From a virus, in the IMG/VR virus record IMGVR_UViG_3300017527_001400, positions 14,409-78,408 of that record: 64,000 bases of DNA; one strand, 5' to 3'. Under the pieces are notes generated by a model. The model saw nothing but the letters and a program-made list of their open reading frames with translations, was not told the DNA's origin and searched no databases. Shown in pieces: positions 6,917 to 30,856 of the stretch (the first letter of the stretch is position 1; the number at the start of each line of letters is the position of its first letter). The position numbers and the translations under genes are program-made.

Positions 6917-7693
6917 ATGGCAGGAAAGCTACACGAGCTCTTGGCGGTAGAAGGGGACCTCGAAGGAATCTGGAGGAAGGTTCTCGCTGAAGCACTCAAC
7001 ACATTCACCAAGAAGAAGAACCATTTCATCGGCTTTGTTCGTCCGCTCGTTATGTTTGCTGATGAACGGCAGAAAGAAAATACCACGGAGCAAGTTGCTC
7101 GGACTACTACTGTCCGTGAAAAACTTGCTTATGTCTGGGTCTCTACCATTCGCTACTTCAATGCGATCGCTCAAAAAGAAAGCACAAATCAAACAGCCTG
7201 TGCTGATCTCGTGGTTGGTGGAAAGGTTCTGCTCCCACAGATGCCGGCTACTTTATTGCTTGGTTTGGAAAGCCGCTTGCGTCAAGTCCGCGAAGTATAT
7301 GCAGGAATTCCTACGCTTCCACCGGGTATCGAATGGAAATTAGATCCTTCGGTGGCAGATGATGTCTATAAATCTGAGGTTCCAGAGGAAGCTTTCAAAA
7401 CTGAAAAGGTTTTCAGGGCTCAGGTTTTATACGAAGCTAAGTTCCCCAAGGATGGGGAAGGTGGGTCTTCGTTGCCGGCTCAGGTCGAGAAAATCGCTGA
7501 GACGGTAAACATCGGTTTGTATAAAAAGACGTATTGGGCTGGCATGCTGTCGACAGCAGAGAAGTCTGAGTTGCTTGAAAAAGTTGACGAATTACTTCGC
7601 TCTGTCAAACAGGCCCGGCAGCGTGCCAACTCAACAAAGATCGTGAAGCTTGACATTGGCCAAGTTTTATACGATTATATCCATAAGCCCTAA
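6917..7693 (+). CDS. conserved phage protein (possibly DUF7873-like)
   Basis: AGGAGG RBS; MAGKLHELLAVE...LLLGLE...KQARQRAN pattern recalled from phage proteins; family name unverified. Confidence 0.7.
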   Translation: MAGKLHELLAVEGDLEGIWRKVLAEALNTFTKKKNHFIGFVRPLVMFADERQKENTTEQVARTTTVREKLAYVWVSTIRYFNAIAQKESTNQTACADLVVGGKVLLPQMPATLLLGLESRLRQVREVYAGIPTLPPGIEWKLDPSVADDVYKSEVPEEAFKTEKVFRAQVLYEAKFPKDGEGGSSLPAQVEKIAETVNIGLYKKTYWAGMLSTAEKSELLEKVDELLRSVKQARQRANSTKIVKLDIGQVLYDYIHKP

Positions 7694-7812
7694 CCTTCGA
7701 AGAAACCCTTACGAGGCAAGGCTGTAACCACTGCTTAACGAAAGGAGTACATGATGTTCTATTGCATAGGAGGTGGCCCATTCTGGTAACTATCTAAAGG
7801 AGGTGATCCAGA

Positions 7813-8106: not shown

Positions 8107-8229
8107 GGCAGTGTAGACTTTAACCATCAAGGTCGCCGGTTCGGATCCGGCCTGGCCCTCCATAAAAAAACTTATGGGCCAGTAGCTCAGCGGTAGAGCG
8201 TGATGAAATTAGTTTTACTACCACTGTTC
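8107..8229 (+). ncRNA. YrlA-type Y RNA (circularly permuted tRNA mimic)
   Basis: Order CATCA, AGGTC, T arm GCCGG-TTCGGAT-CCGGC, CTGGCCC-loop-GGGCCAG acceptor, TA, D arm GCTC-AGCGGTA-GAGC, TGATG; closed by bulged stem GGCAGTG..TAGACT / AGTTTTA..CACTGTT; TROVE gene in same genome. Confidence 0.78.
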
Positions 8230-8292
8230 ATGAAGCAATGGAGCGTCCCATTTAGCTCTGTACTTGTAATACAGAAAGCAAATAAAATGGAA

Positions 8293-13350: not shown

Positions 13351-15015
13351 ATGACAACATTTCTTCAGGATCTATACAAAGGTAAACCAAACGATCATCA
13401 CATCTTAATATGGACTCTGAAAGGAAAACGCTCCAAATGGTTTAAGACGGTAAAGGAAGCGGAGGACTTCATAAGTGCCAACCCTGATGATACATACTTC
13501 GGGGTTGGCACAAGTATTAAGGACTTCGGACCTTCGAAACGATGCACAAAAAGTAAAATTTCAGGAATTCCCGGGCTATATGTTGACATCGATATAAAGC
13601 CCGATGGCGAAGACAGCAAAGCCCACAAGGGTAAGAAGTATCCCAAAAGTATGAAGGAAGCTCTGTCACTGGTCGAAGGACAGGGCATGGATCCAAGCAT
13701 TATCATAAATAGCGGTTATGGATTACACTGCTATTGGCTATTCGATGATTTCTGGTCATTTGATAATAACGCTGAACGCCAACAAGCTGCAGAGCTCGAA
13801 CAACGTATGAACGCCACGATCTTGAACCGTGCGAAACGCAACGGCATGGCGATAGACAGCGTGTTCGACTTGTCTCGGGTTTTGCGGCCTGCGGGAAGCA
13901 ATAATTGCAAACGCAAAAAGCCTGCTGCAGTGACTGTACAATCAGACAGTGGTAAAAGATATGATCCTCTTGACCTCGAACGTGACCTCGACAAACTCCC
14001 TGACAAAAAAATAAAAGATACACATAGAACTTTCTCAGACATAAAGATAGATCCGGGATTAAAGGTCAATCCAAAGGTAGAGATCAAGGCGGACGATTTA
14101 TTCGAGCTATCAGCACAGCAAGATCAATTCAATGCTACATGGGCAGGTAAACGAGGCTTCAAAAGCCCATCAGAATACGATTTAAGTCTGGCGAATATGG
14201 CTGTAGAAGCCGGATGGAGTGATCAAAAGGTCGTCAACCTGATTATCCATCATCGACGCAAAACCGGAGAGCTTGATCCGGTCAAAATGACTAGAAAAGA
14301 TTATTTTGATCGAACAATAAGACTTGCAAAAGAAGCTGCTAAAAAAAACGAGTTTGAACGGCTTACAGACAAAATCGTGGCAAGCGGGACGATTTTTGAT
14401 CAAAAAACTATTCAAGATGTTACAAATCACATAAATAAGCTGCTAAAACCTCTCAAGTTTGTAGAAATCAGAAAGCATATCAACGAACCAAAAGTAGATT
14501 ATTTTATAGACGTCATTGCACCTGATGGAACGGCTTGGGAGATAAAACTTGAAGGTAGCTTACAAACTAGACTGCTGTTTATAAAAAACCTTCAAGACAG
14601 AACAAATGTACGCCCCAGAATCGGCGTCAAGCAATGGGATGCCTTGTCTCAGGCATTCAGCATCGTTGTTGTAGAGGTTGAGCGATCTCTCCGGATGGAG
14701 CAGATACAAGATGCAACAGTTATCTATGTTGAAAAGTTCATTGCAAATAAAAACGTCAAGCTTAAAGAAGTCTGGTCTTCGGGTCAGCCATTCAAGCATA
14801 AAGGTGAATGGGTCTTAAATGTCAAAAAGTTCCACACATGGTTCACCCTTGCAAACAATGAAGGCGATTACGATCAGAAAAGCCTCAGAGCCGATCTCAA
14901 GGAGGCCGGCTTCAAAGGCATTAACATCTGGCTGGTAGAACATCAAGCAGATGGAAGCTATCTTCGAAAGAAGAAGGCTTATATGAAGATCCCCAAAAGC
15001 TGGCCACTGCCTTAA
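13351..15015 (+). CDS. RepB-type (AEP) DNA primase
   Basis: LYVDID, INSGYGLHCYW, FDLSRVLRPAGSNN, SPSEYDLSLAN motifs. Confidence 0.82.
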   Translation: MTTFLQDLYKGKPNDHHILIWTLKGKRSKWFKTVKEAEDFISANPDDTYFGVGTSIKDFGPSKRCTKSKISGIPGLYVDIDIKPDGEDSKAHKGKKYPKSMKEALSLVEGQGMDPSIIINSGYGLHCYWLFDDFWSFDNNAERQQAAELEQRMNATILNRAKRNGMAIDSVFDLSRVLRPAGSNNCKRKKPAAVTVQSDSGKRYDPLDLERDLDKLPDKKIKDTHRTFSDIKIDPGLKVNPKVEIKADDLFELSAQQDQFNATWAGKRGFKSPSEYDLSLANMAVEAGWSDQKVVNLIIHHRRKTGELDPVKMTRKDYFDRTIRLAKEAAKKNEFERLTDKIVASGTIFDQKTIQDVTNHINKLLKPLKFVEIRKHINEPKVDYFIDVIAPDGTAWEIKLEGSLQTRLLFIKNLQDRTNVRPRIGVKQWDALSQAFSIVVVEVERSLRMEQIQDATVIYVEKFIANKNVKLKEVWSSGQPFKHKGEWVLNVKKFHTWFTLANNEGDYDQKSLRADLKEAGFKGINIWLVEHQADGSYLRKKKAYMKIPKSWPLP

Positions 15016-15039
15016 TTAAATAATACAAAAAGAGGAATC

Positions 15040-15360
15040 ATGGACAAAGCCTTCGAAAGCACAGCAGAACTGTTTCTGCACATCGCTACCCTGGCCATCG
15101 CAAAGAAGTCTTCGCCAAAGGATTGGCTGGAGACAGATGACAAGATGTTTATACAGCTATTAGTTCCCCGGGCGGTGCAAGATGAACTTGGCAGAGTGTT
15201 CAGATCCGCCAAGGACTCTGGGCTTTTCAAAGAGGACGTTGTACAAACCGATATCGAAACAGACCTGTTTATGGGATACCTCATAACAGGCTTGTGGCAA
15301 AGCATTGAAGAAGAGGAAGAAAAATGGAAGAAGATATCAAAGAAATTAGATATATATTAA
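15040..15360 (+). CDS. hypothetical protein
   Basis: GAGGA RBS. Confidence 0.6.
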   Translation: MDKAFESTAELFLHIATLAIAKKSSPKDWLETDDKMFIQLLVPRAVQDELGRVFRSAKDSGLFKEDVVQTDIETDLFMGYLITGLWQSIEEEEEKWKKISKKLDIY

Positions 15361-15623
15361 GCCGAACAGAATCACACCTTGGCGAGATGTTGATGACCTT
15401 CAAGACGGCCCTAGAACCAAGGCCAGCTCCAGTCGAGGATGGTCTTCTTCCGTCGGACTTCCATGAAGGCGGCACCAGCGGCCGGATCGGATGGCTCCGT
15501 GTGGAAAAGGCGTTATCTATTATCAAACAGTCTTTGGCCAGAATGAATAGGATGGATGGTAGTATTAACATAGAACCAGTATTTCAGGAGCTAATCGAGA
15601 CGCTAACCAAGTACCAAGAATAG
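15324..15623 (+). CDS. hypothetical protein
   Basis: GAGGA RBS, overlaps previous ORF. Confidence 0.5.
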   Translation: MEEDIKEIRYILSRTESHLGEMLMTFKTALEPRPAPVEDGLLPSDFHEGGTSGRIGWLRVEKALSIIKQSLARMNRMDGSINIEPVFQELIETLTKYQE

Positions 15624-15640
15624 GATAAAAGGAGAGAATT

Positions 15641-16018
15641 ATGAAATTCGAAGGATTTAAACATCAAGAACACGAATCGGCAGCAATTCAACTGGGTCAA
15701 GCAATCAAAACCATATCAGGCATGACCATGCAGATATTGGCCAAATACGGTCGAAGTTCACTGGCCTACAAGAAAGCCGTTGTTGCGCAGCGACGGGCCT
15801 TTGGGTTACAGGATGAAATGAACGACCAATATATGTTCGAACGAGCGGAAATCTTAAAGCAGGTTCCGGAAGTAATGCACAACGGTTTTCCGGTCGATTT
15901 GTACCTGAATTGGGATGACCACAATGTGGTGGGCGCAGGCGGCAATGACGCTATGGCGGATACCCACAAAGTAGTACCCATCGATTCTGGCAAATTCGGC
16001 GAATCTCAGTCCGTGTAA
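15641..16018 (+). CDS. hypothetical protein
   Basis: AAGGAG RBS. Confidence 0.65.
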   Translation: MKFEGFKHQEHESAAIQLGQAIKTISGMTMQILAKYGRSSLAYKKAVVAQRRAFGLQDEMNDQYMFERAEILKQVPEVMHNGFPVDLYLNWDDHNVVGAGGNDAMADTHKVVPIDSGKFGESQSV

Positions 16019-16059
16019 GGTGCTACATTGTAGTGTTTTTCTCTGGGTTTTGTGAAAAA

Positions 16060-16410
16060 GCGAAGAAAAAAACATGAAAAAAACGACCGAAAAAAAGGTT
16101 GAATTAGTGGAAAAAAAAGTTGAATTTTCGGGAAAAAAGGTTGAATCAACCAAAAACTTTTTTGGGCTATGCTGAATGATATCACAGACTTAACCCAAAT
16201 TAGGCGTTATTCTATATAGGGTAATAAAACAAGTCATATGGTAGGTGGGTGGAGAAAAGGTTGACAATGAATGATATCAGTAGGTTATGAAGAATATTCA
16301 ACTAAAAACACGTATTATTCAACCAAAAAGCAATGAATATTCAACCAAAAAAAGAAAATAATCAACTAAAAAGACATGAAAAAAGAAAAATTCAACCTTT
16401 TTTTATTGTG
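16060..16410. repeat. iteron-like repeats, putative replication origin
   Basis: A-tract-GTTGAA at 16098, 16119, 16140 (21-nt period) and inverted TTCAAC at 16297, 16318, 16340, (16361), 16391; AT-rich, between primase and helicase. Confidence 0.65.
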
Positions 16411-16442: not shown

Positions 16443-18101
16443 ATGCTAAATGAATACCGACTTTTTGGGCCTCCGGGGACTGGAAAAACGACAAGACTTG
16501 CAAAAGTGTCAATTCCAAAAGCTGTAAAGAAATACGGGTCTGATGGAGTTGTGGTAACGTCCTTTACAAAAGCTGCAGCAAAGCAAATAATCAGTAAAGG
16601 ATTAGAGGTTGACGATAATTGTGTGGGGACTCTTCATTCTCTGTGCTACAGGGCTTTGGGTTTTCCAAAATTGACCGCCCAGGATAACTTCTCTGAAAAA
16701 TGGAACACGGCATATCCGAGACTTCGGGTCTTTGGGTCTAAACTCGGATCCTTAGATGAAGGTGGTGTGAATGAGCGTGGTGATACTGATGGAGACTCGT
16801 TGCTGTATAAGATGGACATCGCAAGGGCGAAGATGATTCCAAAAGAAAAATGGTTTCAGCCTGTTGCCAGCTTTTATAACAAGTGGACGGCATTCAAAAA
16901 TCTTCATGCTGTAATGGATTTTACAGATCTTATAGAAGAAGTTGTTAAACAGGGCATACCGCCACCCGGAAAGGCGAAGGTAATGTTTGTGGATGAAGCC
17001 CAAGACCTGACGCCTCTTCAATTAAGTTTAATCCGAGGTTGGGGAGAAAATATGGACTGGATCATGCTGGTTGGAGATGATGACCAAACCATCTATTCTT
17101 TCACCGGTGCCAGTCCAGATGCCTTTCTGCAACCAGAAATACCAGACGACAGGAAAATGGTCCTTGATCAATCATATAGAGTGCCCATCTCTGTGCATAA
17201 CGTTGCCAAGACTATTACGAATCGTATTAGATATCGTGAGGCCAAGGAATACAAGCCCAGACCTGAGAACGGAGCTGTTAGATCGATCGAAGAGACATAT
17301 TCTGGCCCAGACGAAATAATCGATGACATCGAAAAGCAGTTGAAATTGAAAAGAACTGTTATGGTTTTGGCATCGTGTTCATATATGATTGAACCGGTAA
17401 GGAAGGCACTGGTCGAAAACAACATGCCTTTCGGCAATAAATACAGGTCTACGAGAGGTGACTGGAATCCGCTCGCAAGAGGCGGTGAATCAAGGACATC
17501 CGCAAGAGACCTGCTATTTACATTCCTATCGAGTGGTTCGGATAATAAATATTGGAATGTACCACAGTTTGTAGCTTGGGCTTCACATATAGGAGTAGGG
17601 AAAAACGGCCTAAAGCGTGTTGTTGGTAAAAAGGTCCTGACTAAACTTAAAGAAGAGATCGAAAAGAACTCAAAAGGTCTCAACAGCACAGAGAACGTTT
17701 TAAGCTTGGCTCTTTCTGATGATGCTATAGAGCCGGCATTGGCCAGAGACGTAGACTGGCTGATGACAAGCCTGCTTCAGAAAAGAAGAAAGCCTCTTGA
17801 ATATCCAATCAAGTTATATAAGAAATTCAAAACAAAAGACATTCTTGAAGGTCATCCGCCAATAACCATAGGAACGATCCATTCGGTAAAAGGAGGAGAA
17901 TCTGATGTGGTTTATCTTTACCCAGATATATCAGCAGCTGCTGCAAGAGAGCAGGCAAATGGCGATATTTCTGAAGATTCTCTGTTTCGATTATTTTATG
18001 TTGGTGTAACTCGAGCAAAACATGAGCTTGTTCTAATGTCACCATTAATGAAGAGATCTGGTAGAGGAAAGCAAAAATTAGCTTATTTTGTAGACATATA
18101 G
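16443..18101 (+). CDS. UvrD/Rep-like SF1 helicase
   Basis: GPPGTGKT, VDEAQD, GDDDQTIY, QSYR, TIHSVKGGE, FYVGVTRAK. Confidence 0.92.
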   Translation: MLNEYRLFGPPGTGKTTRLAKVSIPKAVKKYGSDGVVVTSFTKAAAKQIISKGLEVDDNCVGTLHSLCYRALGFPKLTAQDNFSEKWNTAYPRLRVFGSKLGSLDEGGVNERGDTDGDSLLYKMDIARAKMIPKEKWFQPVASFYNKWTAFKNLHAVMDFTDLIEEVVKQGIPPPGKAKVMFVDEAQDLTPLQLSLIRGWGENMDWIMLVGDDDQTIYSFTGASPDAFLQPEIPDDRKMVLDQSYRVPISVHNVAKTITNRIRYREAKEYKPRPENGAVRSIEETYSGPDEIIDDIEKQLKLKRTVMVLASCSYMIEPVRKALVENNMPFGNKYRSTRGDWNPLARGGESRTSARDLLFTFLSSGSDNKYWNVPQFVAWASHIGVGKNGLKRVVGKKVLTKLKEEIEKNSKGLNSTENVLSLALSDDAIEPALARDVDWLMTSLLQKRRKPLEYPIKLYKKFKTKDILEGHPPITIGTIHSVKGGESDVVYLYPDISAAAAREQANGDISEDSLFRLFYVGVTRAKHELVLMSPLMKRSGRGKQKLAYFVDI

Positions 18102-18210
18102 CGCCGACATGTTATATTAACCCTTTGGTGATAAGCGCCTATGTATACAATAAACTCGGTAGCAAAAAGCGCAGATACCCGGCTCGTCTAGCAACCCATG
18201 GGAAACGAGT
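18100..18210 (+). repeat. TIGR-like dual-repeat array 1 (9-nt spacers)
   Basis: AGCGCCG acatgttat ATTAACCCT ttggtgata AGCGCCT atgtataca ATAAACTCG gtagcaaaa AGCGCAGATACCC ggctcgtct AGCAACCCA tgggaaacg AG. Confidence 0.7.
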
Positions 18211-18432
18211 ATGAATTTAAGAAGAGAAAGATGCGGATTATGTATTCATTTTCGCCATCATGAAGACTTTAAACAGTTCAGGTTGGCTTATCAGTGTCAA
18301 TACTATTATCTTTCATTTCAGCAAAGAAAATATGTGAATTGGAATACAAATAGATGCGAACGTTTTGAACGAAGCTTTAAGAGAATGATTAAATACATTG
18401 CAAGGAATAGTAAATGTCGCCAATTACGCTAG
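18211..18432 (+). CDS. small RCGxC Cys-rich protein (paralog family)
   Basis: RCGLCIHF...C...CERFER. Confidence 0.55.
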   Translation: MNLRRERCGLCIHFRHHEDFKQFRLAYQCQYYYLSFQQRKYVNWNTNRCERFERSFKRMIKYIARNSKCRQLR

Positions 18433-18782
18433 ACGTCGATGAAACAGGCGAAGTAGTACGAACAGATAGACCCAAGCAAGAAGTCGCTGAAAAAGAGCAA
18501 TCAGATGCAATTCCGAAGTGTTTTAACACATTTCCGTGCGACCAGTTGACAAAAACGGATGATAAGTGCTACTGTAACGTCTCAAACGGGGCAATATACT
18601 CTCTGGATGAATGTCCAAGAGGATATTGGTATATACCAGAGAGACGAAAACCAAAGATTCAAAATCGAACTTCCTGGTATGAGGAAAATCATAGGTTACG
18701 CCAGGAGGAAATCAATGGGAAAAATCCTATGGACCGACACGGAGACGACGGGACTGGACTCAAAGAAAAACTCAGCGATTGA
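18414..18782 (+). CDS. hypothetical Cys-rich protein
   Basis: AAGGA RBS; overlaps 5' end of exonuclease. Confidence 0.5.
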   Translation: MSPITLDVDETGEVVRTDRPKQEVAEKEQSDAIPKCFNTFPCDQLTKTDDKCYCNVSNGAIYSLDECPRGYWYIPERRKPKIQNRTSWYEENHRLRQEEINGKNPMDRHGDDGTGLKEKLSD

Positions 18783-19314
18783 AATAGCTGCCATTGTTGA
18801 AATCGATGAAGAAGTAAAAGATCAATTTTCAATCCAAATCAAACCACTTGAAAATAAAGAAATCAGCGATAGGGCTCTTGAAATAAATGGCCGCACCCGG
18901 GAGGAGATCGCCGAATTCACTCCAGTTGATCTTGCGATATTAAGCTTTAAGAAAAGGCTGGAAAAACATGTCAACAAATTCGACTCGTCAGACAAATTTA
19001 TTGTTGCAGGATATAATATTGGTTTCGACATAAACTTTATTCGAGCTCTTTTCCATGACGTCGGTGATAAGTATTATGGCAGTTACTTCTTTAATTGTCC
19101 TCTTGACGTCTACTCCGACGTTGCAAAGCTCGTGTCAAAAACAGATCTCAGACTCCCTAATTATAAGCTTAGCACAGTCTGTAACCATATTGGAATCGAG
19201 ATTGATGCGCACGATCCAGTAAGCGACATAACTGCCACCCGGGAGCTTTATTATCGATTGCAAACAATGACTCCGAAATATGTTCGAAGAAAAAATCCAG
19301 TGACGGCCCAGTAG
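18715..19314 (+). CDS. DnaQ/DEDDh 3'-5' exonuclease
   Basis: AGGAGG RBS; DTETTG, GYNIGFD, AHDPVSDI motifs. Confidence 0.9.
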   Translation: MGKILWTDTETTGLDSKKNSAIEIAAIVEIDEEVKDQFSIQIKPLENKEISDRALEINGRTREEIAEFTPVDLAILSFKKRLEKHVNKFDSSDKFIVAGYNIGFDINFIRALFHDVGDKYYGSYFFNCPLDVYSDVAKLVSKTDLRLPNYKLSTVCNHIGIEIDAHDPVSDITATRELYYRLQTMTPKYVRRKNPVTAQ

Positions 19315-19423
19315 CTCCCAGAAAACCAACGCGCCAGAGGCCCTTAAAAGGGAAGGTACCCATTAGAGAAAAAGGCCCGCGCTAACCAAGTTACCCAAAG
19401 AACGCTTGGCCATAAAGGAGTAG
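19304..19423 (+). repeat. TIGR-like dual-repeat array 2
   Basis: CGGCCCA gtagctccc AGAAAACCA acgcgccag AGGCCCT taaaaggga AGGTACCCA ttagagaaa AAGGCCCG cgctaacca AGTTACCCA aagaacgct TGGCCA. Confidence 0.75.
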
Positions 19424-19426
19424 ACA

Positions 19427-19642
19427 ATGGAAGGATGGAAATGTCCAGTATGCGGAAGGGGTCTTGCACCATTTGTTAATGAATGCCCATGCTATAAAGT
19501 AGATACTGTACAAGATGGGATCTCATGTATAGATTATTATTGGGAAACTTGTCCATTATGTTGGGTTTCTCATAGAAGAGGTGAGCCATGTAATTGCGGA
19601 TCGGTTTATAGTAGTGGTTCAGCCCCCATGCCGGCCCATTGA
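19427..19642 (+). CDS. small zinc-finger protein
   Basis: AAGGAG RBS; GWKCPVCGRG..P...ECPC. Confidence 0.65.
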   Translation: MEGWKCPVCGRGLAPFVNECPCYKVDTVQDGISCIDYYWETCPLCWVSHRRGEPCNCGSVYSSGSAPMPAH

Positions 19643-19856
19643 AAGAGAGCAATCCAAAGGATAGAAGGCCCTCGGAAACCAAGCAATCCATAAGACCCTA
19701 GGCCAGGAAGTTATATTAACACGGTACGCTGAAGCCTCAAGGGTCAAGTAATCCATAGGATAGTAGCTAAAATAGGCCCTCGGGAACCGAGCAATCCATA
19801 AGACCCTAGGCCACTATTTCGAAGCCATTGTTTAAGAGTAACCCTAAAGGAGGGAG
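19632..19856 (+). repeat. TIGR-like dual-repeat array 3 (largest)
   Basis: CGGCCCA ttgaaagag AGCAATCCA aaggataga AGGCCCT cggaaacca AGCAATCCA taagaccct AGGCCA ggaagttat ATTAACACG gtacgctga AGCCT caagggtca AGTAATCCA taggatagt ...; 34-nt period. Confidence 0.8.
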
Positions 19857-19859
19857 CTT

Positions 19860-20183
19860 ATCCCAAGAAGAACCGAAAAGGCAGTTGTTAAGACCATCAA
19901 AGATGCTCTGAATAGTCTCGATCATTGCATGATTAGAAAGCGAAGATTGTATATTAGAGGCGATCCCGACTTAACAGGTTGTTATCTTGGGACACGGCTC
20001 GAGCTTGAAGTAAAAACAATCGGCGGTAGCCCGACATCACTACAACTCAAGCGAATTGACGACTGGCAAAAGCTCGGATGTGTCTCAGCAGTTGTCTGGT
20101 CATTAAGTGACGTTATTAAAGCGATGGATTCGATTCTTTTAAGTAAAGACAAGAAATTGCTTGCAAATATGATCGAAGACTGA
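19860..20183 (+). CDS. VRR-NUC family nuclease/resolvase
   Basis: GDPDL..ELEVK....PT.LQ motif; frame extends upstream to PRRTEKAVVKTI behind an AGGAGG RBS, with ATC at the start position. Confidence 0.75.
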   Translation: MPRRTEKAVVKTIKDALNSLDHCMIRKRRLYIRGDPDLTGCYLGTRLELEVKTIGGSPTSLQLKRIDDWQKLGCVSAVVWSLSDVIKAMDSILLSKDKKLLANMIED

Positions 20184-20240
20184 TATCTTCAAATCTCTAA
20201 CACGGAAAATTTAACATTTCCGCCTCTGATTCATTTCCTC

Positions 20241-20275
20241 GAAGCCCGTTTGCGTGGCAGCCGCAAGCGGGTTTC
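20241..20275 (+). terminator. hairpin/terminator
   Basis: GAAGCCCGTTTGCG-TGGCAGC-CGCAAGCGGGTTTC. Confidence 0.5.
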
Positions 20276-20284
20276 CCTCGTTAT

Positions 20285-20324
20285 GGGCCCTATTCAGGCT
20301 AGCAACCCTTATATATACAGGCCA
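20285..20324 (+). repeat. single TIGR-like unit
   Basis: GGGCCCT attcaggct AGCAACCCT tatatatac AGGCCA. Confidence 0.6.
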
Positions 20325-20326
20325 TT

Positions 20327-20602
20327 ATGAAAAAACCAAATATAAAAGTAAAAAGATGCGGATTCTGTAAACATTACAGGAAACTTCGCATTTCTATAAA
20401 TGGAGTCACAAGCGGATACGGCCCAATCATAACATTCTGCAACTTCTATGGAGACGAGCCAGCCCTCGACATAAACCATAACAAGTCGGCATGTGAAAAC
20501 TTCAAACGAGATTTTAAGAAAACTGCTATATATATAATCAACACAAGGAGAAGCCGTTATGACAACCAAAAGAAACGAAGAAAACATCGAAAGGTTAGCT
20601 GA
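20327..20602 (+). CDS. small RCGxC Cys-rich protein
   Basis: RCGFCKHY...C...ACENFKR. Confidence 0.6.
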   Translation: MKKPNIKVKRCGFCKHYRKLRISINGVTSGYGPIITFCNFYGDEPALDINHNKSACENFKRDFKKTAIYIINTRRSRYDNQKKRRKHRKVS

Positions 20603-20715
20603 TGAGGTGTTAGATAGCTGGGATATGGAGGCAACGCTTCATTATGCAAGAGAGCGCTTGATCTCCAATTATAAAGCTAACGAATCTTCATTCCAAGAGG
20701 ATTGGAAAGCGATGA

Positions 20716-21162
20716 TTGGTTGATATGGATAAATATAAAAAAAGATGCGGCCTGTGTTCTCATTCTATAAAAAAATATTACATAGAAGACGATCGAACCT
20801 ATACTATAAGAGAATCTAATACATGCGACCTCTCTTTAACTCGAACCCGATATGTTGGCGATACAAAAGCTTCATGTAATAATTTTGCAATAGACATAAG
20901 GAAGCTCGCAAAATACCTGCATCGCATCGAAACGGATTCAAGATATAAGCTTATGAATAAGCGAGTCATAGGTCCAGACCCAATGCGAAGGCGATGTGGA
21001 CTATGTTGTTCTTTTGTCAAACAATATAGCGGCTTCCATTATTATATAAAAGGGAAATGCAGAAGAAACATTAGAGGTCTTGTCGACCACAACGAAGACG
21101 CATGTCGAAAATTCAGAAGAAGTAAAAAAAGAGTTGATGCATATATGAAAAAATGCCGTTAG
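20716..21162 (+). CDS. RCGxC Cys-rich protein with two tandem domains
   Basis: RCGLCSHS..SCNNF and RCGLCCSF..ACRKFRR. Confidence 0.65.
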   Translation: MVDMDKYKKRCGLCSHSIKKYYIEDDRTYTIRESNTCDLSLTRTRYVGDTKASCNNFAIDIRKLAKYLHRIETDSRYKLMNKRVIGPDPMRRRCGLCCSFVKQYSGFHYYIKGKCRRNIRGLVDHNEDACRKFRRSKKRVDAYMKKCR

Positions 21163-21285
21163 AAGTAAGTAACCCATGGCTAAAGAGCATTATAAATACC
21201 ATCCGGAATTAGCAATCCATCACAAACAAGTATAACAAAAAGTCATAGTAACCATAACAAGCGGTAATACCACCCCAAAGAGTGC
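21153..21285 (+). repeat. TIGR-like array 5 (degenerate)
   Basis: ATGCCG ttagaagta AGTAACCCA tggctaaag AG..ACCA tccggaatt AGCAATCCA tcacaaaca AG. Confidence 0.6.
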
Positions 21286-21476
21286 GGTGACGACGAATCG
21301 CGGATTTTAAGCCCGAAGATCGTTGTTTTGGCGTAAAAATGCCCGAAAATCCGGTGTTTTTGCGCCTTTTTTTGCTAATTTTGGATGAAAACGATGGACG
21401 AGGCCAGGGGAACGCAGGGTGAAGGGGTCTTTCTCGTGCAAACTCGGCGTAGTCAGACATAAAGTGGCTCGTAAAT

Positions 21477-21503
21477 TAAGGGGGGCGCCAGGGTAGGGGG
21501 GTT
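21477..21503. repeat. 27-bp G-rich direct repeat, copy 1
   Basis: TAAGGGGGGCGCCAGGGTAGGGGGGTT identical to 25722-25748. Confidence 0.85.
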
Positions 21504-21757
21504 AAATCTCGTTAAGCGAGAAAAGAGCCTTTGGAAATCGAACAAATACACATTGTAGACACAACTGAAACCTACTGACCCAACAAAACCAAGAAACACA
21601 GCACAAAGAAAGCCTCTCAAAGCCTATTGCTCTAATATTATTATGAATTCTTTTTTCGTTTCAGAGAATCTCAGGTAAAAAGGAGGGATAGACATAAAAA
21701 CCTACTCTGAAACTCAAAAAGAGCAACCCAAAACAATCAAATTCAAAGGAGTTAACA

Positions 21758-25721: not shown

Positions 25722-25748
25722 TAAGGGGGGCGCCAGGGTAGGGGGGTT
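25722..25748. repeat. 27-bp G-rich direct repeat, copy 2
   Basis: Identical to 21477-21503. Confidence 0.85.
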
Positions 25749-25807: not shown

Positions 25808-25932
25808 CAGGCTTTTCCCACCATCGAACGACCCAGTAACCAACCCAACCTTTCGATCACGCAGGCACTACCCACCATCGGACTTCCCAGTCACCAACCC
25901 GGCTGTTCGATTACGCAGGCATCACTCACCCA
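25808..25932. repeat. 54-nt imperfect tandem repeat (~2.3 copies)
   Basis: CAGGC at 25808, 25862, 25916; shared CCCACCATCG..CCCAGT.ACCAACCC..TTCGAT.ACG. Confidence 0.75.
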
Positions 25933-29663: not shown

Positions 29664-30061
29664 AAGGCTCAACCAAAAGAATGTAAAGAAAATGGTAATT
29701 TGATTGATGTTGATACATTACCAATGAAAGCACTTTTGGACATGGTGTTGTGTTGGTTTGTATTAAAAATAAATGTATTTGTAGTTCAAAAGTATGTAAA
29801 GATGAAAGGATTTAATAATGAAAGAAATTAAATATGTATGGGTTGTTGAAGGAGAAGAAGGAGAAGATGTAAGTTGGATAGATACTATATTTGCTGATGA
29901 AAAAGATGCACAGATAGAAATGGATAGACTTAATAAAGAATACAAACAGCATAGTACTGTTTATTTTGTAGAAAAATATCCAATAAAATGAAAATAATAT
30001 AGTAAAGATTTAAAATTAGTCCGATTCGATTAACCCAATTACCACAAAAGAGGAGAAACCC

Positions 30062-30856
30062 ATGAGCATCGTGCTGAAAGCTATCGTCAGAGGCCATTAC
30101 GACTTACAAAAACTAAGAATTCAGGCTGGGAATCGAATTATTGCGAATTTTCGGTCAAAATTGGACATTGCGCCGTCCGATAAGGCTGAAAAAGCTGCCT
30201 TATCGTCAATAAAGACCGAATTTGCGGCTCTACCAGCCATAAAGTCCAAGAAACACTTCAAAGGCACGCCAATAATTGCCGAATATCCGGAATATGTGCT
30301 GGTTAAGAGCTACGTTGCCCTGTTGGAAAGCGAAAAACAAGTCATCAAAGAAATCACCCAGATCGTCAACGAACATCCGCTGTACATCTCGTTCCTATCC
30401 TCCATCAAGGGTATTGGTCCACTCATGACCGGGATCCTCCTGACAGAAATCGATATCTCCAAGGCCGATACGCCGGCAGCCCTGTGGAAATATGCTGGAC
30501 TTGACGTCACCTCAAAAGGTGAGGGCCGCTCCCGCCGGGCAGAGCATCTAGTCGACCGAGAATATACCAAGGCCGACGGAACTGTCGCCACAAAGAAATC
30601 CATTACCTATAATCCACGCCTGAAGACCAAACTTATGGGAGTCCTGGCACCATCCCTTATCAAACAGCAGTCTCCGGACTATGCTCCAGTTTATTACGAA
30701 TACAAAACCCGTCTCGAAACCAGTCGACCGGAAATGGTCAAAGGCCATATGCACATGATGGCCCTGCGATACATGACGAAGCGCTTCCTGAAGCATCTGT
30801 ATTTGAATTGGAGGAAACTCGAAAATCTGTCGGTGACTGAACGATGGACATCGTAG
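30062..30856 (+). CDS. Nop/IS110-like RNA-binding protein lacking RuvC (TasA-like)
   Basis: GAGGAG RBS; N-terminal YDLQKLRIQAGNR coiled coil; IKGIGPL...EIDI.KA.TPAALWKYAGL; YNPRLKT; H.MALRYM.K.FL..LY..WR; no DEDD domain. Confidence 0.8.
   Translation: MSIVLKAIVRGHYDLQKLRIQAGNRIIANFRSKLDIAPSDKAEKAALSSIKTEFAALPAIKSKKHFKGTPIIAEYPEYVLVKSYVALLESEKQVIKEITQIVNEHPLYISFLSSIKGIGPLMTGILLTEIDISKADTPAALWKYAGLDVTSKGEGRSRRAEHLVDREYTKADGTVATKKSITYNPRLKTKLMGVLAPSLIKQQSPDYAPVYYEYKTRLETSRPEMVKGHMHMMALRYMTKRFLKHLYLNWRKLENLSVTERWTS

What the first reader, a model, noticed from the sequence alone, without database searches (positions are those of the whole stretch)
18100..21285. Dispersed TIGR-like arrays (34-nt unit, two 9-nt spacers) interleaved with genes
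Seen: five intergenic patches (18100, 19304, 19632, 20285, 21153) alternate a ~7-nt edge repeat (AGGCCCN/AGCGCCN) and a 9-nt loop repeat (AGYAAYCCA) around exactly 9-nt variable segments; one unit is nearly duplicated (19666-19705 vs 19774-19813). Established: TIGR arrays have dual repeats with two ~9-nt spacers and guide Nop-domain Tas proteins. Unusual: spacers here read CCN-[9]-AG (I recall UG at that box in described systems), the array is fragmented among genes, overlaps RBSs, and lies 9-12 kb from its presumed protein.
Basis: partly seen in the sequence, partly recalled or inferred. Interest (0 to 1): 0.82.

Follow-up and report, generated by a model that had tools for sequence, protein, structure and literature searches.

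The report
Scattered guide-RNA genes of phage TasA
A phage carries about fifteen short guide-RNA genes of the recently described TIGR-Tas kind, scattered singly or in twos and threes between ordinary genes, far from their protein, which has lost its RNA-cutting tail; this is a new layout of a known system.

Summary
The window is part of a 78-kb phage record. Fifteen 34-nt units lie on the + strand at 7685 and in five patches at 18100-21235. Each reads box C (CCN), 9 nt, loop AGYAAYCCA, 9 nt, box D (AG).

- The bare skeleton occurs 12 times against 0.98 expected, all on one strand.
- Each unit is closed by a 4-bp stem, with compensatory changes in the solitary units.
- The only tas gene (30062-30856) encodes a nuclease-free TasA. 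Its model matches TasR and TasH structures.
- 56 relatives (25-51% identity) mostly carry long 36-nt arrays next to tasA with the same AG...CCA boxes. The "AG not UG" feature is therefore typical of this clade.

What is unusual:
- The edge repeat is 7 nt, not 9.
- Units are solitary or in runs of two or three and fill intergenic gaps.
- They lie 9-22 kb from tasA.
- This TasA lacks the C-terminal Tyr/His tail that cuts tigRNA precursors. That tail is present in 55 of the 56 relatives.

The system looks like a dual-repeat lineage that has shifted towards the stem-loop architecture. Targets are unknown and none lies in the phage's own genome. New variant of a known kind.

The parts
7685..7725 (+). 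Solitary tigRNA-like unit: AAGCCCT / AACCTTCGA / AGAAACCCT / TACGAGGCA / AGGCTGT. It fills the gap after ORF 6917-7693, whose stop codon lies inside the unit.
   Evidence: Covariance model R1, which was not trained on it: 23.2 bits, E 4e-4. Sequence and context. Stem AGCC/GGCT.
18100..18140 (+). Patch 1, unit 1. Edge AGCGCCG, degenerate loop ATTAACCCT. It overlaps a promoter-like site (TAGACA-16-TATATT, 18091-18118).
   Evidence: Edges are 34 nt apart. The loop lacks the G:C pair, so this is a doubtful member.
18134..18174 (+). Patch 1, unit 2. Edge AGCGCCT, degenerate loop ATAAACTCG.
   Evidence: Doubtful member.
18174..18214 (+). Patch 1, unit 3. It is solo-type: GATACCC / GGCTCGTCT / AGCAACCCA / TGGGAAACG / AGTATGA. 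The 3' flank holds the ATG (18211) of the first Zn-finger gene.
   Evidence: Stem ATAC/GTAT.
19304..19413 (+). Patch 2: three tandem units with loops at 19320, 19354 and 19389, sharing the edge AGGCCCN. It starts inside the 3' end of the exonuclease gene and ends 2 nt before the ribosome-binding site of ORF 19427-19642.
   Evidence: E 1e-6 to 2e-5; these units were in the training set.
19632..19706 (+). Patch 3a: two tandem units with loops at 19648 and 19682. The stop codon of ORF 19427-19642 lies in the first spacer.
19731..19814 (+). Patch 3b: a diverged duplicate of 3a, with loops at 19747 and 19790. A 9-nt insertion makes the first unit solitary with its own flanks, GAAGCC...AGCTAA.
   Evidence: block alignment, 79% mean column identity. 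(second unit 95% identical, both differences in spacer A).
19821..19861 (+). Patch 3c: solitary unit GAAGCCA / TTGTTTAAG / AGTAACCCT / AAAGGAGGG / AGCTTAT. Spacer B is the Shine-Dalgarno sequence of the endonuclease gene, whose likely ATC start follows at 19860.
   Evidence: (the phrog_93 match starts upstream of the first ATG). (the ATC aligns with the ATG start in L064).
20285..20325 (+). Patch 4: solitary unit GGGCCCT / ATTCAGGCT / AGCAACCCT / TATATATAC / AGGCCAT. It ends 1 nt before the ATG of ORF 20327-20602.
   Evidence: Absent at the syntenic site of L064.
21152..21235 (+). Patch 5: two solitary-type units with loops at 21168 and 21211 and unit-specific stems AATGC/GCATT and ATAC/GTAT. 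They follow the last Zn-finger gene.
21353..21376 (+). Terminator-like hairpin plus T-run, downstream of the last units.
   Evidence: consensus scan only.
30062..30856 (+). tasA: 264 aa, coiled coil plus Nop-type domain, no nuclease domain. The C-terminus is truncated (...SVTERWTS*) and lacks the Tyr/His processing tail.
30054..30064 (+). Loop-repeat-like AGAAACCCA whose last A is the A of the tasA start codon. It is not a full unit.
   Evidence: The model R1 finds no unit here at E <= 10.

Best explanation
The patches are genuine guide-RNA (tigRNA) genes of the phage's single TIGR-TasA system, in a derived layout.

**The RNA.** Each 34-nt unit folds so that a short terminal helix brings box C (CCN) and box D (AG) of its two ends together. 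The helix is 2 bp where units are tandem and 4-5 bp where a unit stands alone. The internal loop repeat AG-YAAY-CCA forms the second, pseudo-symmetric box D / box C pair. Two 9-nt spacers are left exposed.

**Expression.** The units lie on the coding strand and fill the gaps between replication-module genes, so they are most likely transcribed as part of those polycistronic mRNAs.

**The protein.** A dimer of the nuclease-free TasA binds each unit. This TasA lacks the Tyr/His tail that cuts precursors in dual-repeat systems, and the 2 central bases of the edge repeat are also missing. Release of the units must therefore rely on host RNases or on trimming down to the protected core, as proposed for stem-loop TIGR systems.

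**The action.** The complex would then bind 18-bp DNA sites, 9 nt on each strand, and block transcription or replication without cutting. The targets are outside this phage genome and are unknown.

**Shown here:** unit anatomy, statistics, covariation, protein identity, loss of the tail, and comparison with relatives.
**Inferred:** transcription, binding, processing route and DNA targeting.
For: **Motif and spacing.** Far above chance and strand-specific.

**Terminal stem.** Columns 2-5 pair with 36-39 in 12/13, 13/13, 13/13 and 13/13 units, using GC, CG, AU and UA pairs. 0 of 500 shuffles reach the observed percentage paired or covariation score. Slid controls pair 23-44% against 80.8%. The innermost variable pair is complementary in 14/14 units, shuffle p about 1e-5. 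This matches the covarying extra edge pair described for tigRNA (PMC12045711).

**Protein.**
- TasA matches TasR 9MTY (phmmer E 1e-14) and TasH (E 7e-6).
- The AlphaFold model (pLDDT 90.4) matches 9MTY at TM 0.66 and TasH at 0.53-0.65.
- It is the only tas gene in the 78-kb record.

**Relatives.**
- 57 TasA-encoding loci were found in IMG/VR. One, L056, holds only the C-terminal half of the gene and its tail was not read, which leaves the 56 relatives counted below.
- Arrays with AG....CCA edge and loop repeats lie within about 300 nt of tasA in 32 of 36 loci mapped. They are on the same strand and have a 36-nt period.
- The window's loop consensus includes the loop repeat of L014, L028 and L034-38.

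**Processing tail.** SpTasH Y289/H296 lie in a C-terminal tail, LYVQEKLGH. The homologous Y.EAKLG..H is present in 55 of the 56 relatives and absent here, with no remnant in any frame. A preprint reports the dyad as conserved in dual-repeat systems and absent in stem-loop systems.

**Second cases.**
- L024, the only other relative without the tail, has no long array beside this tasA. It has 2-3 solitary units.
- L035 has at least 9 solitary stem-closed units, each in a gap between ORFs.
Against: - There is no expression or binding data.
- No target was found for any spacer pair.
- The units are few, two have degenerate loops, and several spacers double as translation signals. A guide free to evolve would not be expected to do that.
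- A 7-nt edge and a 34-nt unit have not been reported for any characterised TIGR system.
- The 4-bp stem of the tandem units follows trivially from palindromic edges (GGCC, GCGC). Independent covariation therefore rests on the six solitary units.
- Loss of the TasA tail could instead mean that the system is decaying.
- The closest syntenic relative, L064, has no units at all. There is thus no cross-genome conservation test of individual units.
Confidence: 0.72

Rival explanations
1. The units are cis-acting TasA sites on mRNA rather than DNA guides. In this reading, TasA binding, and cleavage by host RNases at the units, punctuates the polycistronic transcripts and switches translation of the gene just downstream. 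The 'spacers' are then simply local mRNA sequence. This may also hold in addition to guide function.
For: - **Packing:** units fill the intergenic gaps exactly. They start in or just after the upstream stop codon and end at the next ribosome-binding site or start codon.
- **Overlap with translation signals:** spacer B of unit 19837 is the Shine-Dalgarno sequence AAAGGAGGG. Unit 20301 ends 1 nt before an ATG. The ATG lies inside the 3' flank of unit 18190.
- **Relative L035:** solitary units sit 0-14 nt after a stop in seven of nine cases and about 35-50 nt before the next listed start in seven of nine, through a whole run of small genes.
- **tasA start:** a repeat-like AGNNNNCC-ATG overlaps the tasA start in the window, L002, L025 and L035. 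L011 has the same arrangement with its own edge repeat, AACGAGTC.
- **Targets:** no DNA target was found.
Against: - Tas proteins characterised so far act on DNA through both spacers.
- Spacers of the duplicated unit have already diverged only in spacer A. That is how a guide would diversify.
- Units 19320-19389, 19648-19790 and 21168-21211 do not overlap any translation start.
Confidence: 0.17
2. The locus is a decaying TIGR system. A formerly contiguous array next to tasA was broken up and eroded, tasA lost its tail, and the remaining units are non-functional relics.
For: - Few units; degenerate loops at 18116 and 18150; irregular flanks; truncated TasA C-terminus.
- No array next to tasA, only a loop-like remnant over its start.
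Against: - Solitary units keep unit-specific complementary flanks (AATGC/GCATT, ATAC/GTAT, AAGC/GCTT, AGCC/GGCT). This requires selection on each unit.
- A two-unit block was duplicated recently.
- TasA keeps all 28 invariant residues of the family alignment and gives a confident fold.
- Relative to the compact syntenic contig L064, the units look like additions between genes rather than leftovers of an array.
Confidence: 0.08
3. These are unrelated intergenic repeats (promoter, terminator or REP-like elements) that resemble TIGR units by chance.
For: - A sigma-70-like site overlaps patch 1, and an 11-mer GTTATATTAAC recurs at 18111 and 19710.
- No Rfam family matches the units.
Against: - The loop consensus includes the loop repeat of TIGR arrays that sit next to homologous tasA genes.
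- Exact 9-nt spacers, covarying closing stem and one-strand bias are all present.
- A tasA gene lies in the same genome.
Confidence: 0.03

Closest known systems
Dual-repeat TIGR-TasA systems (Faure et al. 2025, PMC12045711; e.g. the Flavonifractor plautii TasA locus) and the 56 IMG/VR relatives found here
   Same: Alternating edge and loop repeats, both beginning with box D and ending with box C. Two 9-nt spacers. A covarying closing pair in the edge. Array on the tas strand. TasA made of a coiled coil plus a Nop-type domain, 25-51% identical to relatives that carry canonical arrays.
   Different: The edge is 7 nt rather than 9, with the central 2 nt missing, so the unit is 34 nt rather than 36. 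There are at most three units in tandem instead of 5-15 or more. No array lies beside tasA, and the units sit 9-22 kb away between genes. TasA lacks the Tyr/His processing tail.
Stem-loop TIGR systems (Peromyscus gut-contig TasA in Faure 2025; CsTasR and BlTasA in bioRxiv 10.64898/2026.09.09.750476)
   Same: Single units closed by complementary flanks. Box C and box D flank two spacers. Sub-arrays are separated by other sequence. The Tas protein has no Tyr/His loop, which implies maturation by other RNases.
   Different: The stem here is only 4-5 bp. The internal linker is a conserved loop repeat, not variable. No conserved CUU sits at the stem base. The protein's nearest relatives all belong to dual-repeat loci, so the resemblance looks independently derived.
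Archaeal and eukaryotic box C/D s(no)RNAs with Nop5/Nop56/58 (established knowledge; comparison drawn in PMC12045711)
   Same: A pseudo-symmetric RNA with two guide segments held by a Nop-domain dimer. Guide genes embedded in host transcripts, as intronic or polycistronic snoRNAs are, offer a parallel to units embedded between cistrons.
   Different: No RUGAUGA/CUGA k-turn boxes and no Rfam snoRNA match. No fibrillarin or L7Ae partner. The expected target is DNA, not RNA methylation sites.
Virus-borne mini-CRISPR arrays and solitary repeat units (from my own knowledge, not checked here)
   Same: Very short guide arrays carried by a virus, away from or without effector genes.
   Different: Different repeat architecture and effector family. 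Here the effector is encoded in the same genome.

Membership tests
TIGR array, dual-repeat type | Two distinct alternating repeats (edge, loop) separated by spacers of about 9 nt | tested here: met
   The edge AGSSCCN and the loop AGYAAYCCA alternate. 29 of 30 spacers are 9 nt.
TIGR array, dual-repeat type | Repeats of 8-12 nt giving a uniform 36-nt unit | tested here: not met
   The edge is 7 nt and the unit is 34 nt (spacings 34/34/35). Relatives with a clear repeat show a 36-nt period.
TIGR array, dual-repeat type | Both repeats start with box D and end with box C, and the motifs covary between edge and loop | tested here: met
   AG...CCN occurs in both repeat types here and in the relatives (AG...CCA). 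TasR uses UG...CCA.
TIGR array, dual-repeat type | An extra base pair in the edge repeat, supported by covariation | tested here: met
   14 of 14 units are complementary, as C:G, G:C or A:T; shuffle p about 1e-5. Pair counts.
TIGR array, dual-repeat type | A long tandem array (typically 5-15 units) directly upstream or downstream of tas | tested here: not met
   At most 3 units in tandem. The nearest unit is 8.8 kb from tasA. No unit is found beside tasA at E <= 10.
TIGR array, dual-repeat type | A Tas protein carrying the C-terminal Tyr/His dyad that cuts the edge repeat | tested here: not met
   The window TasA ends ...SVTERWTS*. The Y.EAKLG..H tail is present in 55 of 56 relatives and in SpTasH.
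TIGR array, dual-repeat type | Transcribed and processed to discrete tigRNAs bound by Tas | not testable with these tools
   No sequencing run was listed.
TIGR array, stem-loop type | [quoted passage not shown] | tested here: met
   A 4-bp stem with compensatory changes. Solitary units have 3-5-bp unit-specific stems.
TIGR array, stem-loop type | A variable linker in place of a loop repeat, and a CUU motif at the stem base | tested here: not met
   The loop repeat is conserved. No recurrent CTT occurs in the flanks.
TIGR array, stem-loop type | A Tas protein without the Tyr/His loop | tested here: met
Tas protein (TasA class) | Coiled coil plus Nop-type fold as in solved TasR and TasH; no HNH or RuvC domain | tested here: met
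   phmmer to 9MTY at E 1e-14. Foldseek to 9MTY TM 0.66 and to TasH TM 0.53-0.65 over about 260-276 columns. The protein has 264 aa with only a Transposase_20 Pfam match.
box C/D sRNA | RUGAUGA and CUGA boxes forming k-turns; match to curated snoRNA models | tested here: not met
   These boxes are absent from the units. No Rfam match at E <= 1 over 7000-31500.

The most novel reading that the evidence does not exclude
This phage, and L024 independently, may capture a dual-repeat TIGR system turning into a stem-loop-like one. On this reading, TasA lost its own RNA-cutting Tyr/His tail and the edge repeat lost the 2 central bases where that cut is made. The units became self-closing hairpin-ended modules that can live singly inside mRNAs. 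Guide release would then be tied to host processing of polycistronic early transcripts. TasA binding at units that overlap ribosome-binding sites would feed back on translation of the neighbouring genes. The same search logic, box skeleton plus closing stem applied contig-wide, could recover guides for part of the roughly two-thirds of tas loci that currently have no annotated array.
Probability: 0.3. Interest if true: 0.8.

Novelty: new variant of a known kind. Interest (0 to 1): 0.66.

Why it matters
TIGR-Tas was described in 2025. Its natural roles, the origin and growth of its arrays, and the relation between its two RNA architectures are open questions.

- **Link between the two architectures.** Inside a clade that otherwise has textbook 36-nt arrays and a self-processing TasA, this locus shows a coordinated change of protein and RNA. 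The Tyr/His tail is lost, the edge is shortened, and stems close single units. That connects the dual-repeat and stem-loop classes.
- **Array growth.** A diverging two-unit duplicate shows growth by local duplication. The syntenic contig L064 has no units at the corresponding positions.
- **Annotation.** Guides can lie more than 20 kb from tas, as single units hidden in intergenic gaps. This is relevant to the many tas loci with no annotated array (6,685 arrays for 20,096 loci in the TIGRFinder preprint).
- **A testable idea.** Nuclease-free TasA in phages may be wired into the phage's own gene expression.

Tried and rejected
**Target searches**
- *Own genome:* I searched rc(A)+B and B+rc(A) for 16 units on both strands of the 78-kb genome. 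There was no hit with 2 or fewer mismatches. Three hits had 3 mismatches, against 2.3 +/- 1.8 for shuffled spacers.
- *Relatives:* the same search over 852 kb of relatives' loci gave 22 hits with 3 or fewer mismatches against about 17 expected, and one hit with 2 mismatches against about 1 expected. No signal.
- *Public genome collection:* I did not search it. An 18-mer is expected to occur many times by chance in 596 Gb.

**Expression**
- Sequencing runs: none was listed for 18000-21400.

**Looking for closer relatives**
- An IMG/VR scan for the 34-nt unit pattern gave four single chance-level matches and no arrays.
- The helicase neighbour in IMG/VR (L058, 39% identity) has no units.
The 87,390-bp contig that encodes an identical exonuclease (P0001) could not be fetched.

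**Other checks**
- Rfam finds nothing on the units.
- The proposed full unit over the tasA ribosome-binding site is rejected as a unit. The skeleton fits, but the stem fails and R1 gives no hit at E <= 10. Only the loop-like AGAAACCC-ATG junction stands.
- 11385-11425 matches the skeleton but scores weakly (E 0.81) and lies inside a 59-aa ORF, so I left it out.
- 21708-21746 has a loop motif only, so I left it out.
- MAFFT misaligned the first unit set. I replaced it with an ungapped 41-column alignment.
- I misread a reference number and opened an unrelated Cas9 paper.

Full report
**Setting.** The window is bases 14409-78408 of a single 78,408-bp virus record. It is a tailed phage. It encodes a primase/polymerase, a UvrD-type helicase (16443-18101), a 3'-5' exonuclease (18715-19314), a VRR-NUC-like endonuclease, a ligase, a minor tail protein and four tRNAs. 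The finding lies in the replication module, and all genes there are on the + strand.

- Read in register, the intergenic patches show the same plan. A 7-nt edge (AGGCCCN or AGCGCCN, or for isolated units only its halves) is followed by 9 nt, then the loop AGYAAYCCA, then 9 nt, then the next edge.
- The loop motif occurs 9 times on the + strand and never on the - strand. Eight of the nine lie in 18190-21722. The rest of the genome adds only one - strand copy.
- A skeleton of only eight fixed bases (CC-N10-AG-N4-CC-N10-AG) occurs 12 times, all on the + strand. Shuffles give 0.98 +/- 0.85, with a maximum of 4.
It is part of a duplicated two-unit block, 19632-19705 against 19731-19813. In that block, the two differences of the second unit both fall in spacer A, and a 9-nt insertion has made the first unit solitary.

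**Each unit is closed by a helix.**
- I aligned 13 units without gaps (A2). Columns 2-5 pair with columns 36-39 in 12/13, 13/13, 13/13 and 13/13 units.
- Three of these pairs show changes on both sides (GC, CG, AU, UA). None of 500 shuffles reaches the observed percentage paired or covariation score. Slid partners pair 23-44% against 80.8%.
- The pair next to the box C / box D pair is complementary in 14 of 14 units, as C:G seven times, G:C five times and A:T twice. The shuffle p is about 1e-5.
- For tandem units this follows from palindromic edges (GGCC, GCGC). The solitary units have different, unit-specific flanks that still pair: AATGC/GCATT, ATAC/GTAT (twice), AAGC/GCTT and AGC/GCT.
- This is the covarying extra pair that Faure et al. 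describe for the edge repeat of tigRNA, extended here to a short stem.
- A covariance model built from the 13 units (R1) was run without filters over the whole genome. It finds all strong hits on the + strand. It also finds one unit it was not trained on, at 7685-7725 (23 bits, E 4e-4, stem AGCC/GGCT). That unit fills the gap after ORF 6917-7693.
- That makes 15 units. Two of them (18100 and 18134) have degenerate loops.

**The protein.**
- ORF 30062-30856 (264 aa) matches the TasR of PDB 9MTY at E 1e-14 and SpTasH at E 7e-6. 9MTY is the TIGR-TasR structure of Faure et al..
- An AlphaFold model built on 27 sequences (pLDDT 90.4) matches 9MTY at TM 0.66 and TasH entries at TM 0.53-0.65, ahead of IS621.
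- There is no nuclease domain, and it is the only tas gene in the genome.

**Relatives show what is normal for this clade.**
- IMG/VR holds 57 loci encoding relatives at 25-51% identity. L056 carries only the C-terminal half of the gene, and 56 of the 57 were later read for the C-terminal tail.
- Their most frequent 8-mers are pairs of repeats such as AGCGAGCCA with AGACAACCA, AGCGTGCCA with AGCAACCCA, and AACGAGTCA with AGAAAACCA.
- I mapped 36 of these loci. In 32 a repeat run lies within about 300 nt of tasA, on its strand. Where a clear repeat is present, the period is 36 nt (example L003).
The window's loop consensus includes the loop repeat of several relatives.
- The window's edge equals the relatives' 9-nt edge minus its two central bases: AGCG-AG-CCA against AGCGCCN, with AGGCCCN as a compensated variant.

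**The protein has changed in step with the RNA.**
- In SpTasH the residues that cut precursor tigRNA are Y289 and H296. In the annotated CDS they lie in the C-terminal tail, LYVQEKLGH.
- Of the 56 relatives read for the tail, 55 have the homologous tail after the last helix (...EGLPV..Y.EAKLG..H...). L002 has W for Y, and L046 has E for the G.
- The window protein ends ...SVTERWTS*. It has W at the Tyr position and stops three residues later. No remnant of the tail exists in any frame downstream, where the next ORF overlaps.
- The window thus combines a tail-less TasA with edges that lack the central dinucleotide and with stem-closed units.
- The only other tail-less relative is L024 (...PINHPFKEN*). 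It also has no long array beside this tasA and only two or three solitary units. The 36-nt TATAAATCA/TTAAAATCA array 5 kb away sits next to a second, divergent tas gene.

**Layout.**
- The units lie 8.8-22 kb upstream of tasA and fill intergenic gaps tightly. Upstream stop codons lie inside the first spacer for the exonuclease gene, for ORF 19427-19642 and for ORF 6917-7693.
- The last unit of a patch ends at the next gene's translation signals. Spacer B of unit 19837 is AAAGGAGGG. It is followed by an ATC that aligns with the ATG start of the endonuclease in L064.
- Unit 20301 ends 1 nt before an ATG, and the 3' flank of unit 18190 contains an ATG.
- A metagenome contig with a 65%-identical helicase (L064) has the same gene order, with genes abutting or overlapping and no units at the sites of patches 1-4. 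Neither ORF 19427-19642 nor ORFs 20327-20602 and 20559-20723 has a clear counterpart at the corresponding positions in L064.
- The patches therefore look like additions in the window's lineage, although loss in L064 cannot be excluded.
- Interleaving is not unique to this phage. L047, L049 and L052 have sub-arrays separated by ORFs.
- L035 has at least nine solitary units with 5-bp covarying stems (AGGGG...CCCCT, AGGGA...TCCCT, AAGGA...TCCTT). Seven of the nine begin 0-14 nt after a stop codon. Seven of the nine end about 35-50 nt before the next listed start. All lie within a 12-kb zone around its tasA.

**What it does.**
- By homology, the units are guides for a TasA dimer that binds DNA through both spacers without cutting. 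TasA has been shown to repress transcription.
- I found no target in the phage itself or in relatives' loci, so the target is unknown.
- With no Tyr/His tail, maturation must use other RNases.
- The packing between cistrons, the overlap with ribosome-binding sites, and a repeat-like AGNNNNCC-ATG junction at the tasA start suggest a second, cis-acting role on mRNA. The junction occurs in the window and in L002, L025 and L035. L011 has the same arrangement with its own edge repeat, AACGAGTC. I rate this role as the main rival, or as a complement to guide function.
- Decay of the system is unlikely given the compensatory stems, the recent duplication and the intact conserved core of TasA.

**Literature check.** In the papers held, I found no description of solitary or widely scattered units in the dual-repeat clade. 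Known precedents are sub-arrays separated by about 450 nt in one stem-loop locus and flexible positions close to or inside tas.

**Verdict.** This is a genuine TIGR-TasA system and a new variant of a known kind.

Noticed in passing
L035:4900-15400 (IMGVR_UViG_3300005253_000193): A TasA relative that keeps the Tyr/His tail and long 36-nt arrays also has at least 9 solitary units with 5-bp covarying stems. Each sits in the gap between two consecutive small ORFs. Their 3' stem bases often read CCTTC or CCCTC, reminiscent of the CUU boundary motif of stem-loop tigRNAs.
   Followed up: partly
window 30054-30064; L002, L011, L025, L035 just upstream of tasA: The tasA start codon is fused to a repeat-like AGNNNNCC-A(TG). 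In L002 and L011 this is the locus's own edge repeat. It points to possible autoregulation of TasA translation. Four exact cases occur in 25 loci, where about 0.1 is expected by my rough estimate.
   Followed up: partly
L024:9923-10864 and 14871-16190: One 97-kb phage contig carries two tas genes. One is a tail-less TasA with only solitary units. The other is a divergent Tas followed by a 36-nt array with very different boxes (TATAAATCA / TTAAAATCA).
   Followed up: partly
window 19845-19862: The VRR-NUC-like endonuclease gene appears to start at ATC (19860), 6 nt after a strong Shine-Dalgarno sequence. The family match begins upstream of the first ATG, and the ATC aligns with the ATG start in L064.
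   Followed up: partly
window 20243-20283 and L064:2330-2372: A hairpin with loop TGGCAGC lies after the endonuclease gene. It is conserved in the syntenic contig, with different but still complementary stem sequences.
   Followed up: no
window 19262-19280 and 19815-19833: A 19-nt inverted repeat (17/19) joins the 3' end of the exonuclease gene to the 5' half of unit 19837. It brackets the roughly 570 nt that are absent in L064.
   Followed up: no
window 18211-18432, 20327-20602, 20725-21162: Three paralogous small Zn-finger genes (N-terminal K/R-R-C-G-L-C). Their 5' ends also share DNA similarity. Two of them are directly preceded by a unit.
   Followed up: no
window 18091-18118 and 19710-19720: A sigma-70-like site (TAGACA-16-TATATT with an upstream TG) lies inside patch 1. 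The 11-mer GTTATATTAAC is repeated between patches 3a and 3b. These may be internal promoters for sub-arrays.
   Followed up: no
window 21478-21500 and 25724-25746: The G-rich element GGGGGGCGCCAGGGTAGGGGGG occurs twice in large non-coding stretches. A 54-nt tandem repeat lies at 25817-25921.
   Followed up: no
window 8108-8230 (+): A sub-threshold Rfam match to YrlA (Y RNA-like): 41 bits against a gathering score of 69, E 4e-6.
   Followed up: no
window 30062-30856, residues about 36-60: The window TasA lacks about 7 and about 4 residues near the tip of the coiled-coil hairpin compared with most of the 26 aligned relatives.
   Followed up: no
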